From Actinomycetota bacterium (GTDB lineage Bacteria; Actinomycetota; CADDZG01; JAHWKV01; JAOPZY01): a DNA stretch of 64,000 nt. Positions 56,334 to 60,717 of the stretch are shown here, one piece after another. The notes under the pieces are model-generated. The model made no database searches, had not been told where the DNA came from, and worked only from the letters and a program-made list of their open reading frames with translations. The stretch is from positions 583-64,582 of the forward strand of contig JAOPZY010000260.1 of NCBI GenBank assembly GCA_025963875.1. The letters are read 5' to 3'. The position numbers and the translations under genes are program-made. Every line of letters starts with the position of its first letter. Position 1 is the stretch's first letter.

Positions 56334-57803
56334 ATGAACCAGCACCAACAACGACGCACCAAGATCGTCTGCACGCTCGGCCCCGCTACCCAGTCACCCG
56401 ATGCCATTGCCGGCCTGGTCGCCGCCGGCATGGACGTGGCACGGCTCAACTTCTCGCACGGCTCCCGTGACGACCACGCCGAGATCTACGGCCGGGTGCG
56501 GGATGCGTCGGATGCCGCGGGGCGGGCGGTCAGCATCCTGGTGGACCTGCAGGGGCCGAAGATCCGCCTCGGCTGCTTCGACGGCGGCTTTGCGGTGCTG
56601 GAGCCGGGGTCGGTGTTCACCGTCACCGCCGAACAGCCCCACGGCGCCGTCCAGGCGCTCGCGGGTTCCAGCCGCGGCGCCTCCACCACCTACGGCGCGC
56701 TGGCCCGGGATCTGTCTCCCGGTGACACGATCCTCATCGACGACGGCCTGATCAAGCTCACCGCCATCTCCTCGGACGGGACCGAGGTCGCGTGCCGGGT
56801 GATCGAGGGCGGCCTGGTCTCCGATCGCAAGGGCATCAATCTGCCGGGTGCCCGCGTCAGCGCCCCGGCGCTCACCGACAAGGACGCCGAGGACCTGCGG
56901 TTCGCCCTGGCGCTCGGCGTCGACCTGGTCGCCCTGTCGTACGTCCGCCGGCCGGAGGACGCCGACATCGTGCGGCAGGCGATGGAAGCGGCAGGCCGGC
57001 GGGTACCGGTCATCGCCAAGCTGGAGAAGGCGGAGGCGGTCGAGAACCTCACGCAGATCGTCGACGCGTTCGACGGCGTCATGGTGGCCCGCGGCGACCT
57101 CGGTGTCGAGACGCCCATGGAACAGGTGCCGCAGGTCCAGAAGCGTGCGGTGACGCTGGCCAGGGAGCGGGCCAAGCCGGCGATCGTGGCCACCCAGATG
57201 CTGGAGTCGATGCGGGTGCACTCCCGCCCCACGCGCGCCGAGGTCTCCGACGTCGCCAACGCGGTGCTCGACGGCGCCGACGCGCTGATGCTGTCGGCCG
57301 AGACCAGCGTCGGCGAGCACGCCCGGGAGGCGGTCGCCACGATGGCCAGGATCATCGCCGCGACGGAGGAGGGCACCGACTTCCCGGTGATCGAACCGGC
57401 GAACGCCACACCCGAGGAGGCCATCGCCGCAACCGCCCCCCAGCTCGCACGGGCCGTCAACGCCCGGGCGCTGGTCGCCTTCACCCAGACGGGGGCCACC
57501 GCCCGCCGCATCGCGGCGCAGCGGCCGCCGGTGCCCGTGCTGGCGTTCACGCCGGTGGCGGCGGTGCGGAGCCGCCTGACGCTTACCTGGGGGGTGGAGA
57601 CCTTCGTGGCGCCCCTGTCCGGGCACCTCGAGGACATGGTGACCCAGGTCGCCGACACAGTTCTCAGCTGCGGGCGCATCCGTTGGGGCGACGCCGTCGT
57701 GATCGTCGCCGGGAGCCTGCAGGGCCGCAGCGGTGCCACCGACCTGATCAGGGTGCTGCAACTCGACTCGCCTGGAGATTTCCATGCCCGGATCTCCGCG
57801 TGA
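56334..57803 (+). CDS. pyk: Pyruvate kinase
   Basis: TKIVCTLGPA, the K/Mg-binding region and the MVARGDLG motif. 489 aa. Confidence 0.9.
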   Translation: MNQHQQRRTKIVCTLGPATQSPDAIAGLVAAGMDVARLNFSHGSRDDHAEIYGRVRDASDAAGRAVSILVDLQGPKIRLGCFDGGFAVLEPGSVFTVTAEQPHGAVQALAGSSRGASTTYGALARDLSPGDTILIDDGLIKLTAISSDGTEVACRVIEGGLVSDRKGINLPGARVSAPALTDKDAEDLRFALALGVDLVALSYVRRPEDADIVRQAMEAAGRRVPVIAKLEKAEAVENLTQIVDAFDGVMVARGDLGVETPMEQVPQVQKRAVTLARERAKPAIVATQMLESMRVHSRPTRAEVSDVANAVLDGADALMLSAETSVGEHAREAVATMARIIAATEEGTDFPVIEPANATPEEAIAATAPQLARAVNARALVAFTQTGATARRIAAQRPPVPVLAFTPVAAVRSRLTLTWGVETFVAPLSGHLEDMVTQVADTVLSCGRIRWGDAVVIVAGSLQGRSGATDLIRVLQLDSPGDFHARISA

Positions 57804-58863
57804 CAAGCCGGGGACGATCCTCATCCTGCAGGGCGGCGGGGCGCTCGGTGCCTACGAGTGCGGCGTCTACAAGGTCCTGGCGGAGCGGCTCGACGACCTG
57901 AGCATCATCGCCGGCACGTCCATCGGCGCCATCAACGCCGGCGTCATCGCCCGGAACTTCGGCGACCCCGATCGGGGTGTGGCAGCCCTCGAGGCGTTCT
58001 GGCACGACCTCGCCTTCCCCGTGTTGCCGGTGTGGGGGTCCAACCCCTGGATGAAGCTGTGGGGCAGCGTTCAGGCGGTGGCGACGTCGCTCACGATCGG
58101 CAACCCGAGCCTCTTCCAGCCGGTGCTGTTCGGGGAAGCGCCCTACTCGACCGACGCCATGCACGCGACCGTCGCATCGGCGGTGGGGACGTACACCAAG
58201 GGCTCCACCCCCCGGCTGATCGTGACCGCGGTCGAACTGGAGCAGAGCCGGCCCGTGGCGTTCGACAGCGCCGAGTGCCACATCACCCCCGACCACATCG
58301 TGGCGAGCGGGAGCCTCCCGCCCGGCTTTCCTCCCCACGTGATCGACGGCCTGCACTACTGGGACGGTGGGCTCTGGTCCAACACGCCGCTGCCCGACGA
58401 GCTCGCGGCGGTCCGGGGAGGCTCCCATGGTGACGCTGATCCCGCCGCCGGCTACCAGGTCTACGTCGTCGACGTCTTTCCCCAGCAGTTCGTCCCCCCC
58501 GACGATCCCCTGCCGACGAGCACCGAGGTGCAGGCCCGGATGGGCCAGATCATCTACCAGGACAAGACCCGCTCCGACGCCTCCGGCAGCCGGTGGGTGA
58601 CGTGGTGCCGGGAGCTCTACGACATGCTGGAGGCGATCCCGCCCGCGGTGACCTCCGCCCTCGAGGCCCCCCTGCGGTCGCGTCGCGAACAGCTCCTCAC
58701 CGATGTCGCAGCCGTCAAGTCCCGGGTCCCGGTGACCGTGACCCGCATCCAGCGGATGTCGCTGCCGTACGAGCAGATCTCCTCCGGCGTCGACTTCTCG
58801 GTGGGCCGCATCGAGGCCCTGATCGAGCAGGGAGAACAGGATGCCCGGCGGGCCGTGGCCTGA
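57784..58863 (+). CDS. Patatin-like phospholipase (second copy in the window)
   Basis: QGGGALGAYECGV oxyanion region, GTSIGAINA nucleophile elbow. Overlaps the pyk 3-prime end by 20 nt. Confidence 0.75.
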   Translation: MPGSPRDKPGTILILQGGGALGAYECGVYKVLAERLDDLSIIAGTSIGAINAGVIARNFGDPDRGVAALEAFWHDLAFPVLPVWGSNPWMKLWGSVQAVATSLTIGNPSLFQPVLFGEAPYSTDAMHATVASAVGTYTKGSTPRLIVTAVELEQSRPVAFDSAECHITPDHIVASGSLPPGFPPHVIDGLHYWDGGLWSNTPLPDELAAVRGGSHGDADPAAGYQVYVVDVFPQQFVPPDDPLPTSTEVQARMGQIIYQDKTRSDASGSRWVTWCRELYDMLEAIPPAVTSALEAPLRSRREQLLTDVAAVKSRVPVTVTRIQRMSLPYEQISSGVDFSVGRIEALIEQGEQDARRAVA

Positions 58864-58957
58864 CGACGGCGAAGCACCCCATTGGGCAGAAGACGATGCG
58901 GACGACGGCGCGGGTCCTTCTGCCGAGCGTGCCGATGTGGTTCACTACTCCCATATG

Positions 58958-59557
58958 GTAGGTGAGCACCCGGACCTGAACTCCACGGCTGCATCGCTGC
59001 TCGGTTTCCTCGAGAGTTACGGACCGATGAGCGGCTACGACATCGTCGGCATGGTGGAGGGGTCGATCGGCTACTTCTGGAACGTCACCCGCAGCCAGGT
59101 CTACCGGGAGCTCAACCGCCTCGCCGAGGCGGAACTCGTCGAGATGGGGGAGTCGGGGGCCAGGGCCCGCCGTCCCTACACCATCACCGGGGCGGGGCGG
59201 CGGGCGTTCCTCAACTGGCTGGCGCTGCCGCCGGGGCCGGACATCATCCGGCTGCCCTTCCTGCTCCGCTACTTCTTCGGCCAGCATCTCGACCCCCAGA
59301 CGCTCCGGGCGTTCGTGACCCTGCACCGGCCCCAGCACGAGCAGCGCCTGCAGTACTTCCAGTCGCTCATCCCCAAGCTCCTCGACGAGCAGCCCTTCAT
59401 GGCCCACGTGGCGGAGCTCGGGGTGGCCTACGAGGAGACGATGCTGGCCTGGTTCGACACGATCCCCCAGGAGCAGGCACGCCAGCAGGCGAAGCGGGAC
59501 CTGAAGGCCGTCCCTCCCGTGCAGGACGCTTCACCGCCGGACTCAGCCTCAGCCTGA
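58958..59557 (+). CDS. PadR-family transcriptional regulator
   Basis: Winged HTH of the PadR type (SGYDIVGMVEGSIGYFWNVTRSQVYRELNRLAEAELVE) plus a C-terminal dimerisation region. Confidence 0.75.
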   Translation, partial: VGEHPDLNSTAASLLGFLESYGPMSGYDIVGMVEGSIGYFWNVTRSQVYRELNRLAEAELVEMGESGARARRPYTITGAGRRAFLNWLALPPGPDIIRLPFLLRYFFGQHLDPQTLRAFVTLHRPQHEQRLQYFQSLIPKLLDEQPFMAHVAELGVAYEETMLAWFDTIPQEQARQQAKRDLKAVPPVQDASPPDSASA

Positions 59558-59612
59558 GCAGCTCTAGGCCAGCGCCTCCATGAGGTCCCCGACCTCCGGC
59601 GTCTCCTGCTCC

Positions 59613-59661
59613 AACGTTTGAGTAAATCCCGCCCCAATGGGGGCGGAAAATGCTCAAACGT
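59613..59661. terminator. Compound inverted repeat (AACGTTTGAG...CCCGCCCC aatg GGGGCGG...CTCAAACGTT) downstream of padR in an AT-rich patch
   Basis: Outer 10-bp arms are perfect and an inner 7-8-bp GC stem is present. A terminator or a small palindromic element. Confidence 0.4.
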
Positions 59662-59698
59662 TTATAGAATAGCGTTATGGAGCCTTGGATGGCGCAGG

Positions 59699-59780
59699 CT
59701 AGATGAGGCCGAAGGTGATGGCGCCCTTCCAGATGGCCCGGTTGCTGGTGGGGGAGCGCTCCGACTTCTTCCCGGCCATG
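59699..59780 (-). pseudogene. ku: Remnant of a Ku (NHEJ) gene: only the N-terminal about 26 codons survive
   Basis: Minus-strand translation from an ATG at about 59777-59779 gives MAGKKSERSPTSNRAIWKGAITFGLI. RAIWKGAITFGL matches the near-invariant Ku N-terminal motif (MRAIWKGAISFGLV). The downstream reading frame has no Ku similarity and runs antisense into padR. Confidence 0.45.
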
Positions 59781-59855
59781 CCCTAGGGTTTCCCAGGCGG
59801 CCTCCGTGCGAAACCGAACAAGTTGCCAGCCTATTTCAACCTTTACCCCTTGCTA

Positions 59856-59874
59856 ATACCGCGAAAGTCGGTAT
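59856..59874. promoter_or_regulatory. Palindrome ATACCG-cgaaagt-CGGTAT about 10 nt upstream of the HTH regulator gene; candidate autoregulatory operator overlapping a TTGCTA -35-like hexamer
   Basis: Seen directly. Confidence 0.3.
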
Positions 59875-59883
59875 GCTGGATTT

Positions 59884-60717
59884 ATGCCTGTGGGAGACGA
59901 CCAGTCGGTCAAAGCTGCAAAAGCTCTCGCGCTGCCCACGCGTTCGGCCATCCTCGCGCACCTGCTGACCTCAGGTCCCCTGACGGCCAAGGAGGTCGCC
60001 GACGAGTTCTCTCTGCACGCCAACGTCGCCCGGGCGCACCTCGACCTCCTCGTCGAGGCGGGGTTCCTGGCCACCGGTGTGCGGCGCAAGCGCAAGGGCC
60101 GGCCCGCCAAGGTCTACTTCACCTGGGAGGGCGAGATGGGCGCCCTCGAGGACTGGGAGGTCTCACCGCAGCCCGGGATCGTGCCGCCGGAGGCCGAGAT
60201 GCTGGTCACCGTGGCCGAGCCGCTGCCGGCCGGACCCAATCCCCACCGGTTGATCGCCGCGATCCTCATCCGCCTCGTCGAGCGCGTCGACGCCCCCACC
60301 CTCTACAGCGTGGCGGAGCAGGTGGCTCGGGAGGAGGGGCGCAAGCTCATGCTCGACTACCGCGACGGGGGCCTCGACTTCGCAGCCGCCGTGCGGGCGA
60401 TGGTCGAGGAGCTCCGCCGGTTCTCGCCCCAGGCCCAGATCGTGCGCCTCTCCCACGACGAAGCCGAGATCGACACCCCCGACTGCCCCTTCCGTGACAT
60501 CGCCCTCGAGCACTCGGATCTCGTGTCGGTCATCGACCCGGCCCTCAAGGAGGGGGCCATGGCCGCCCTCGGGCACCCGAGCGACATCGAGGTCGAGGCC
60601 TCGGTCGCCCGTGGGGATGCGTCGTGCCGGGAGATCATCCGCCGCCGTGAGACAGCCGCTGCAAGCAGTGATGCACGAGAAGCGTCCGTGATTGCGAAAG
60701 GAGTAGAGCATGGCTGA
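59884..60717 (+). CDS. Winged-helix transcriptional regulator with C-terminal Cys-containing putative sensor domain
   Basis: N-terminal ArsR/TrmB-like wHTH (TRSAILAHLLTSGPLTAKEVADEFSLHANVARAHLDLLVEAGFL), then a roughly 170-aa C-terminal domain of unknown function. First gene of a rhodanese/carbonic-anhydrase cluster. Confidence 0.55.
   Translation: MPVGDDQSVKAAKALALPTRSAILAHLLTSGPLTAKEVADEFSLHANVARAHLDLLVEAGFLATGVRRKRKGRPAKVYFTWEGEMGALEDWEVSPQPGIVPPEAEMLVTVAEPLPAGPNPHRLIAAILIRLVERVDAPTLYSVAEQVAREEGRKLMLDYRDGGLDFAAAVRAMVEELRRFSPQAQIVRLSHDEAEIDTPDCPFRDIALEHSDLVSVIDPALKEGAMAALGHPSDIEVEASVARGDASCREIIRRRETAAASSDAREASVIAKGVEHG

What the first reader, a model, noticed from the sequence alone, without database searches (positions are those of the whole stretch)
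59699..59780. Vestigial Ku (NHEJ) gene: only about 26 N-terminal codons remain, next to an AT-rich palindromic element
The minus strand encodes MAGKKSERSPTSN-RAIWKGAITFGL-I from an ATG at about 59779. RAIWKGAITFGL is the near-invariant N-terminal signature of bacterial Ku (for example MRAIWKGAISFGLV). A 12/12 consensus match is essentially impossible by chance in a 64-kb window. After codon about 26 the frame loses all Ku similarity and runs antisense through a 49-bp compound inverted repeat (59613-59661) into padR. This looks like a deletion scar of ku, and so probably of NHEJ, with the breakpoint adjacent to a palindromic, AT-rich element. It was invisible in the ORF track because the residual ORF is non-homologous noise.
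Basis: partly seen in the sequence, partly recalled or inferred. Interest (0 to 1): 0.7.

Follow-up and report, generated by a model that had tools for sequence, protein, structure and literature searches.

The report
Dead ku gene split by repeat
This is the wreck of a DNA-repair gene (ku) in an uncultured soil actinobacterium: only its first 26 and last 15 codons survive, its middle is replaced by an 87-bp piece of a repeat found elsewhere in related soil DNA, and loss of this gene is common in bacteria.

Summary
The minus strand 59779-59702 encodes MAGKKSERSPTSNRAIWKGAITFGLI and then a TAG stop. (1) The same frame resumes as a Ku C-terminus (LEQETPEVGDLMEALA*, 59612-59564), so both ends of ku survive. 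(2) The "AT-rich palindromic element" between them (59613/15-59701) is not native DNA. It is an 87-bp fragment of a dispersed repeat of about 0.3-0.45 kb, seen in at least 8 unrelated contexts in soil metagenomes. On the + strand it carries a 49-bp hairpin, a 5' leader and the first 4 codons of a truncated AbiEi_4-family ORF. (3) Other assemblies of the same locus form an allele series: ku with a single nonsense codon; ku cut at codon ~106 by other DNA; ku codons 1-57 fused to a longer piece of the same repeat; and several secondary deletions, the window among them. ku therefore decayed in situ. More distant relatives (90% and below) lack ku here. No second ku or ligase motif was found in the 64 kb, so loss of NHEJ as a pathway cannot be judged. 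This is an ordinary pseudogene with an unusually well-documented decay path. The repeat family is the only mildly novel element.

The parts
59780..59827 (-). ku 5' untranslated/promoter-proximal region. It is shared by all ku-bearing alleles and absent from the ku-less relative L010.
   Evidence: Alignments. L010 is collinear with the window from the HTH gene up to about 59828, then diverges directly into padR. L033, L035, L036 and L052 keep this stretch (…CCTGGGAAACCCTAGGGC ATG).
59702..59779 (-). ku 5' remnant: 26 codons, MAGKKSERSPTSNRAIWKGAITFGLI
   Evidence: The same DNA continues into a Ku domain in L036, L035 and L052.
59699..59701 (-). TAG stop that ends the 26-codon remnant. It is created at the junction and belongs to the repeat fragment (antisense of …GCTA in the AbiEi_4 ORF).
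   Evidence: and the BLAST extent (repeat reference positions 70-156 = window 59615-59701).
59613..59701 (+). Fragment of a dispersed repeat (reference positions 70-156). It holds the hairpin, the leader TATAGAATAGCGTTATGGAGCCTTGG, and ATG GCG CAG GCT, the first 4 codons of a truncated AbiEi_4-family ORF starting at 59689.
   Evidence: Searches show 96-99% identity to copies in unrelated contexts (L039, L041/47, L043, L044, L045, L046, L048, L049-51). In long copies the ORF matches Pfam AbiEi_4 above its cutoff.
59613..59662 (.). 49/50-bp imperfect palindrome (23-nt arms, 4-nt loop) with a GC-rich inner stem CCGCCCC/GGGGCGG
   Evidence: I2; fold -52/-48 kcal/mol for 111 nt, z about -5.7. It is precisely absent from copy L049-51. 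It is followed by a T-run in copies L044/L046. It is not scored as a terminator in the window.
59567..59612 (-). ku 3' remnant, in frame with the 5' remnant: (L)EQETPEVGDLMEALA
   Evidence: Alleles L001, L006 and L007 keep 43 nt more (…DLMEALRASVEAARSRSKAKPA*). It aligns to the C-terminus of Ku P0109 (13/25 identical, E=1e-6) and to Mtb Ku residues 241-273. JGI names the 31-aa ORF 'non-homologous end joining protein Ku'.
59564..59566 (-). Stop codon of the ku 3' remnant, 6 nt from the padR stop codon (convergent genes)
   Evidence: padR 58841-59557, + strand.

Best explanation
The locus is a ku pseudogene that decayed in place.

Shown: an ancestor of this species-level population had an intact ku between the HTH_20/rhodanese operon (divergent) and padR (convergent).

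Inferred: one illegitimate-recombination event replaced most of the Ku core (from about codon 58 to about 32 codons before the stop) with part of a dispersed repeat, inserted antisense to ku. That repeat consists of a short 5' segment, a 49-bp hairpin, a leader, and the 5' end of a decayed AbiEi_4 / REase(DUF559)-type gene. Both junctions lie inside the repeat, and the junction on the ku 5' side falls within codon ~10 of the AbiEi_4 ORF. They are therefore deletion or end-joining junctions, not transposon termini.

Shown by the allele series: small deletions then nibbled the dead gene independently in different lineages. The window allele lost about 105 nt across the 5' junction, leaving 26 ku codons fused to codon 4 of the AbiEi_4 ORF. 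It also lost about 43 nt of the 3' remnant.

Inferred: nothing here is likely to be functional today. The 26-codon ORF carries a frameshift in one allele. The hairpin may at most attenuate read-through between padR and the old ku promoter.
For: Ku identity:
- TIGR02772 is the only family hit, on profile positions 1-13.
- the N- and C-terminal remnants align to the Ku termini.
- chance expectation is 1.5e-7.

In-situ origin:
- L036 (flanks 96% identical to the window) has ku with one TAC>TAA nonsense codon and good Ku sequence up to the end of the contig (807 Ku hits at E<=1e-20; PDB Ku at 3e-30).
- L052 (93%) and L035 (90%) also start ku at the same site.

Intermediate allele:
- L033 and L034 have ku codons 1-57 followed by repeat positions 172>70.
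- L040 and L003 show other secondary deletions.
- L001 has a +1 frameshift inside the remnant.

The window-type allele is real: it is present in assemblies from 8 samples.

The insert is foreign and repeated:
- at least 8 unrelated contexts at 83-99% identity.
- AbiEi_4, 28.7 bits against a cutoff of 25.
- every close copy is truncated.
- the nearest full-length relatives are AbiEi_4 + REase_MTES_1575/DUF559.
Against: - No fully intact orthologous ku allele was recovered. The ku 3' half is never seen contiguous with the 5' half, so the exact breakpoint on the 3' side and the amount deleted (about 225 codons in the window, by alignment to Mtb Ku) are inferred.
- All comparison sequences are short metagenome contigs. 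L034, L042, L035 and L052 could be chimeric assemblies at or near the junctions.
- It is unresolved whether a longer repeat-bearing element first inserted and was then trimmed, or whether a ~100-bp piece was captured in one step.
- L010 (90% identical) has no ku at all. ku may therefore have been acquired within this clade rather than being ancient.
Confidence: 0.88

Rival explanations
1. One-step templated capture. A double-strand break or replication template switch inside ku was repaired by copying about 100 bp from a distant copy of the repeat, deleting the Ku core in the same event. No element ever transposed into ku.
For: Both junctions are internal to the repeat, and no repeat terminus is present in the robust alleles. 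There is a 2-nt AC overlap at the ku/AbiEi junction in L033 (read by eye). The 3' junction sits exactly at the base of the palindrome.
Against: L034 and L042 show the repeat's 5' part (reference positions 15-69 and 38-69) attached to the ku 5' remnant. If genuine, these contigs mean a longer copy once sat in ku. They may, however, be chimeric assemblies through the repeat.
Confidence: 0.3
2. The ku fragment was acquired as a fragment, for example carried in with the repeat or with padR/patatin, and was never an intact gene at this locus.
For: More distant relatives lack ku here. L010 has padR directly next to HTH. L012 has pyruvate kinase directly next to HTH. No Ku motif occurs within +-10 kb in 23 loci.
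Against: Closer relatives (96%, 93% and 90% flank identity) carry 88 to more than 145 Ku codons starting at the same ATG with the same upstream DNA. The 3' remnant lies in the right orientation and in frame next to padR.
Confidence: 0.03
3. The remnant has been co-opted. Either the 26-aa ORF is a functional micropeptide or leader, or the hairpin is now a bidirectional terminator or regulatory RNA between padR and the HTH operon.
For: The hairpin is very stable and is retained in all window-type alleles. In copies L044/L046 it is followed by a T-run, the shape of an intrinsic terminator.
Against: L001 carries a frameshift and an I>M change inside the 26-codon ORF. L040 and L042 delete most or all of that ORF. 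No terminator or promoter is called in the window. There is no Rfam match. The hairpin is deleted cleanly in copy L049-51. The only variation in the hairpin is in unpaired positions, so there is no covariation signal.
Confidence: 0.08
4. Chance similarity or an assembly artefact.
For: The profile score of the 26-aa peptide alone is weak (E=0.11), and Pfam reports nothing.
Against: The expected number of chance matches is 1.5e-7. An identical arrangement is found in independent assemblies from 8 samples and 3 data sources. Alleles continue into a bona fide Ku domain.
Confidence: 0.01

Closest known systems
Bacterial Ku (NHEJ end-binding protein; NCBIfam TIGR02772, Pfam PF02735) as a pseudogene
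   Same: The N-terminal signature RAIWKGAITFGL and the C-terminal DLMEAL(RASVEA…) tail are present. The position and orientation are orthologous to ku in sister lineages. Sporadic loss of NHEJ genes is well documented (PMC7719229: NHEJ gained and lost multiple times).
   Different: The whole Ku core (about 225 codons) is missing and is replaced by 87 bp of unrelated repeat DNA. It cannot encode a functional Ku.
AbiEi_4 + REase_MTES_1575/DUF559 genes (~300-aa actinobacterial proteins)
   Same: The ORF carried by long copies of the repeat matches Pfam AbiEi_4. It aligns at 40-50% identity to the N-termini of ~300-325-aa proteins with this architecture.
   Different: Every close copy is truncated at 27-90 codons and lacks the nuclease domain. 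The window keeps only 4 codons. What is repeated is the gene's 5' end plus ~150 nt upstream, not a gene.
MITE-like / non-autonomous dispersed repeats and REP-type palindromic repeats
   Same: It is short (0.3-0.45 kb), dispersed in intergenic positions among ordinary chromosomal genes, contains a strong palindrome, and has recurrent boundaries in some copies: a 5' start at AAGGAG preceded by CTAAG-like pentamers, and a 3' end …GGATCACGGC|TTAGTC in three contexts.
   Different: No convincing terminal inverted repeats were found. A target-site duplication is seen in only one copy (CTTAGGTT in L049). The 3' ends are variable. No autonomous partner or transposase was found. Copy number within any single genome is unknown.
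Palindrome-stimulated deletion / illegitimate recombination in actinobacteria
   Same: Deletion end-points lie at the base of the hairpin (window 3' junction). The hairpin is precisely excised between GCGTTT/ACGTTT repeats in L049-51. Some junctions show short microhomologies.
   Different: The mechanism is inferred from the junction sequences only. No experimental data exist for this uncultured lineage.

Membership tests
Bacterial Ku (TIGR02772 / PF02735) | N-terminal signature (R-A-I-W-x-G-x-I-x-F-G-L) at profile positions 1-13 | tested here: met
   (residues 14-26 on profile positions 1-13).
Bacterial Ku (TIGR02772 / PF02735) | Ku core domain present; whole-protein score above the curated cutoff (150 bits NCBIfam; Pfam gathering score) | tested here: not met
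   no Pfam hit; 11.9-13.9 bits. The core is present only in alleles L036, L035 and L052.
Bacterial Ku (TIGR02772 / PF02735) | Conserved C-terminal tail (…DLMEAL.ASVE… followed by basic residues) | tested here: met
   (13/25 identical to the P0109 C-terminus, E=1e-6).
Bacterial Ku (TIGR02772 / PF02735) | Partner LigD or another NHEJ ligase in the genome | not testable with these tools
   Only 64 kb is available. There is no ligase motif I in the window and no further Ku.
AbiEi_4 / REase_MTES_1575 (DUF559) gene | N-terminal AbiEi_4 winged-helix domain | tested here: met
   Met for long copies of the repeat (28.7 bits against cutoff 25). In the window only 4 codons remain.
AbiEi_4 / REase_MTES_1575 (DUF559) gene | C-terminal restriction-endonuclease-like domain | tested here: not met
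   All close copies stop at 27-114 aa. The domain is found only in 40-50%-identical full-length relatives.
MITE / non-autonomous transposable element | Multiple dispersed copies in unrelated contexts | tested here: met
   (at least 8 contexts in metagenomes). Copies per single genome were not testable. There is one copy in the 64-kb window.
MITE / non-autonomous transposable element | Terminal inverted repeats and target-site duplication | tested here: inconclusive
   only CTAAG/CTTAG pentamers near the ends; one copy (L049) is flanked by a direct CTTAGGTT; the 3' ends vary.
Intrinsic (Rho-independent) terminator | GC-rich stem-loop followed by a U-tract | tested here: not met
   The stem is present, but no T-run follows it in the window and no site is called. 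A T-run is present in copies L044/L046.
Known RNA families (Rfam 15) | Covariance-model match | tested here: not met
   best 18.5 bits, E=1.3, a miRNA model; no hit at E<=0.1 on four full copies.

The most novel reading that the evidence does not exclude
The 0.3-0.45-kb repeat is an undescribed non-autonomous mobile element of uncultured soil Actinomycetota. It is built from the 5' end of an AbiEi_4/REase gene plus a palindrome, and its ends are associated with CTAAG/CTTAG. ku in this clade has been knocked out repeatedly and independently: by a nonsense codon, by two or three different foreign-DNA junctions, and by an internal deletion in P0109. That pattern would point to active selection against NHEJ, or very relaxed selection on it, in these soil lineages rather than a single accident.
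Probability: 0.25. Interest if true: 0.45.

Novelty: new member of a known kind. Interest (0 to 1): 0.3.

Why it matters
On its own this is another example of the well-known sporadic loss of bacterial NHEJ. Its value is documentary. Public metagenomes happen to hold a graded series of alleles of one locus: nonsense mutation, replacement of the core by repeat DNA, then independent nibbling deletions. Together they show step by step how a bacterial gene is erased in natural populations, and they show that a palindrome-bearing dispersed repeat took part. For annotation, it shows that a 26-codon ORF and a 31-codon ORF (the latter already labelled 'Ku' by JGI) are two halves of one pseudogene. It also shows that the hairpin is repeat-derived and not a native regulatory site.

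Tried and rejected
- Engineered-deletion scar (FRT/loxP-like, in-frame remnants). Rejected: the allele occurs in environmental assemblies from 8 samples, and the insert is a natural dispersed repeat.
- Integron attC or a known RNA. By eye there is no R''/R' core match, and Rfam finds nothing.
- Intact ku or ligD elsewhere in the window. None found. Motif regexes gave the same answer.
- ku at the syntenic site in 23 related MAG loci. None found.
- Viral collection scan for the hairpin arm. Two hits share only the pattern itself, so they are chance matches.
- Plasmid database search with a full repeat copy. No match.
- Consensus promoter/terminator scan. Nothing called.
- Pfam on the foreign ORF in L052, which I had guessed to be recombinase-like. 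No hit, so the guess is dropped.
- Literature search for AbiEi + DUF559 repeats. No papers found.
- Pfam on the 26-aa and 29-aa remnants. No hits; the peptides are too short.

Full report
**1. Observation**

On the minus strand an ATG at 59779 opens 26 codons, MAGKKSERSPTSNRAIWKGAITFGLI (59779-59702), followed immediately by TAG at 59701-59699. Its arms are 59613-59635 and 59640-59662, 23 nt each and 83% complementary, with a 4-nt loop. It lies in a GC trough of 0.42-0.55, against 0.685 for the window.

Pfam reports nothing for so short a peptide. The only NCBIfam family that touches it is Ku_bact TIGR02772, with residues 14-26 on profile positions 1-13 (E=0.11). A permissive form of the 12-residue motif is expected 1.5e-7 times by chance in the six-frame translation, and 62 of 120 retrieved Ku proteins carry it.

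**2.

The same minus frame reads LEQETPEVGDLMEALA* at 59612-59564 after the AT-rich piece. In other assemblies of the same locus (L001, L006, L007) this tail is 43 nt longer: …DLMEALRASVEAARSRSKAKPA*. It aligns to the C-terminus of a bona fide Ku, P0109 (13/25 identical, E=1e-6). JGI already labels the 31-aa ORF 'non-homologous end joining protein Ku'.

So both ends of ku survive, in frame, 6 nt from the convergent padR stop codon. About 225 codons of the Ku core are missing.

**3. Provenance and reality of the allele**

The neighbouring proteins occur with identical sequence on contigs from 8 samples in JGI, NCBI MAG and Logan data. All of these contigs carry the same 5' remnant, insert and 3' remnant, with flanks 99.3-99.6% identical to the window. 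An assembly artefact or a laboratory scar is therefore excluded.

Small differences show a dead gene drifting. L001 has a +1 G frameshift and an I>M change. L003 has a further 60-nt deletion. The window, L008 and L009 lack 43 nt of the tail.

**4. In-situ decay, shown by an allele series**

A search with the joined remnants, followed by look-ups of the encoding contigs, recovered further alleles with the same upstream DNA.

| Contig | Flank identity to window | State of ku |
|---|---|---|
| L036 | 96% | One TAC>TAA nonsense codon, then good Ku sequence to the contig end |
| L052 | 93% | Reads as Ku for ~106 codons, then joins lower-GC foreign DNA |
| L035 | 90% | Reads as Ku for ~88 codons |
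| L033, L034 | L033 96% (L034 has too little flank) | Codons 1-57 fused to a longer version of the window's insert, beginning ACACGCCATGCTG(G)CGTGTAGCC… |
| L040 | 98% | Whole ku 5' end lost |
| L042 | 96% | ku codon 13 joined to the insert |

Supporting calls:
- The L036 fragment gave 807 hits at E<=1e-20, all PF02735, and matched solved bacterial Ku structures at 3e-30.
- The L052 junction is shown, and its foreign ORF has no Pfam match.

The window allele is thus a secondary derivative of the L033-type allele, with about 105 nt more removed across the 5' junction.

More distant relatives have no ku here. L010 (90%) goes from the HTH promoter straight into padR. L012 has pyruvate kinase directly next to HTH. 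None of 23 loci has a Ku motif within +-10 kb. ku is therefore ancestral to a sub-clade that includes the window's species, and the PK-HTH interval is a variable region.

**5. What the 'AT-rich palindromic element' is**

The single metagenome scan, using one arm of the hairpin as the pattern, returned 9 contigs. Seven of them carry the element in unrelated flanking DNA. BLAST against a composite reference shows a repeat of about 0.3-0.45 kb. The window holds only reference positions 70-156, which is 59615-59701.

Read on the window's + strand, the repeat consists of:
- a ~55-nt head (AAGGAGAAGGGCGCGCAGATGCAG…CGCCGCTAG);
- the 49-bp hairpin;
- a leader (TATAGAATAGCGTT.TGGAGCCTTGG);
- an ORF, MAQATRQHGVISTVELRRFGLTEKAIRWRAATGILQPLFVGVFLVAGSPRTWEQRITA…, that matches Pfam AbiEi_4 above its cutoff (28.7 bits against 25).

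Every copy is truncated or frameshifted at a different point. Every database relative above 80% identity is only 53-114 aa long. The nearest full-length relatives (40-50% identity, ~300-325 aa) have AbiEi_4 plus REase_MTES_1575/DUF559.

Some boundaries recur. The 5' start at AAGGAG is preceded by CTAAG-like pentamers. A 3' end …GGATCACGGC|T(T/A)AGTC occurs in three independent contexts. One copy is flanked by a direct CTTAGGTT. I found no convincing terminal inverted repeats and no transposase.

The copies lie among ordinary chromosomal genes. The palindrome itself is unstable: it is precisely missing from copy L049-51. Copies L044 and L046 carry an extra T-run beside it. There is no Rfam family, no plasmid match, and no second copy in the window.

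**6. Mechanism**

Shown: both ku/repeat junctions lie inside the repeat. The one on the ku 5' side falls within codon ~10 of the AbiEi_4 ORF in L033/L034, and within codon 4 in the window. The other lies at the base of the hairpin.

Inferred: these are illegitimate-recombination junctions, not transposon ends. There are two possible routes. In the first, a longer repeat-bearing segment sat in ku and was trimmed together with the Ku core. L034 and L042 support this if they are not chimeric. In the second, about 100 bp was captured in one repair or template-switch event. I cannot separate these two routes with short contigs.

Present-day function is unlikely. There is a frameshift in one allele, whole-remnant deletions in others, no called terminator or promoter, and no covariation in the hairpin.

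**7. Comparison and novelty**

Bacterial NHEJ is known to have been gained and lost many times (PMC7719229), so a ku pseudogene is ordinary. Whether NHEJ as a pathway is lost in this organism cannot be judged.

The repeat family seems undescribed. A literature search for AbiEi + DUF559 found nothing. However, it is characterised here from only about 8 contexts.

**Verdict:** a real, correctly spotted ku vestige. The interpretation needs correcting: there are two remnants separated by an inserted repeat fragment, and the window allele is a secondary deletion derivative. Interest is low to moderate.

Noticed in passing
L039, L041/L047, L043, L044, L045, L046, L048, L049-L051 (repeat copies); window 59613-59701: This is a dispersed 0.3-0.45-kb repeat family in soil metagenomes. 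It carries a palindrome and a truncated AbiEi_4 ORF. Boundaries recur near CTAAG/CTTAG pentamers, and one copy is flanked by a direct CTTAGGTT. How it moves is unknown.
   Followed up: partly
L049:4919-5322 (also L050, L051): This copy of the repeat lacks the 49-bp hairpin precisely (…CGCTAGGCGTTT|ATAGAATAGCG…), as expected for palindrome excision between short direct repeats.
   Followed up: partly
L044 and L046 repeat copies: This variant has an extra ~22 nt (TTTTTTTGGGGCCGGCAGGGCGG) directly after the hairpin. That gives the shape of an intrinsic terminator in the orientation antisense to the AbiEi_4 ORF.
   Followed up: no
Repeat head, e.g. L043:561-614: A conserved AAGGAG followed 12 nt later by ATG CAG ATC GAC CGG GCG ATG AAG CGC CGC CGC TAG (an 11-codon ORF, MQIDRAMKRRR) lies just upstream of the hairpin. 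In L046 the ATG is ATA, so it may not be coding.
   Followed up: no
L052:630-1062: ku in a 93%-identical lineage is interrupted at codon ~106 by lower-GC foreign DNA. Its antisense 85-aa ORF (MKTKASTGEERDD…) has no Pfam match. This is either an independent ku disruption or an assembly chimera.
   Followed up: partly
P0109 and P0121: Ku proteins from more distant lineages (70-76% identity) are also damaged. P0109 has an internal deletion of the mid-core. P0121 switches to unrelated sequence after …SLRTIG. This hints at recurrent ku decay in the wider clade.
   Followed up: no
L036:1-600: The contig contains the HTH gene's 5' region twice in opposite orientations, joined near position 440 (two BLAST segments). 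It is a fold-back that looks like an assembly artefact or an inversion next to ku.
   Followed up: no
window 56334-59883 compared with L010 and L012: The interval between pyruvate kinase and the HTH_20 gene is variable across relatives. The window has patatin + padR + the ku remnant, L010 has padR only, and L012 has nothing. It is a local hotspot of gene gain and loss.
   Followed up: partly
window 59595-59705: RNA folding extends the hairpin into a ~100-nt structure, because the ku 3' remnant (GCGTCTCCTGCTCC) pairs with the AbiEi leader (GGAGCC…GGATGGCGC). The values are dG -52 kcal/mol and z -5.7. It is probably fortuitous, but it could have favoured the junction.
   Followed up: no
window 58841-58863 and 60710-60717: Patatin and padR overlap by 23 nt, and HTH_20 and rhodanese overlap by 8 nt. 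This suggests two translationally coupled pairs flanking the dead ku.
   Followed up: no
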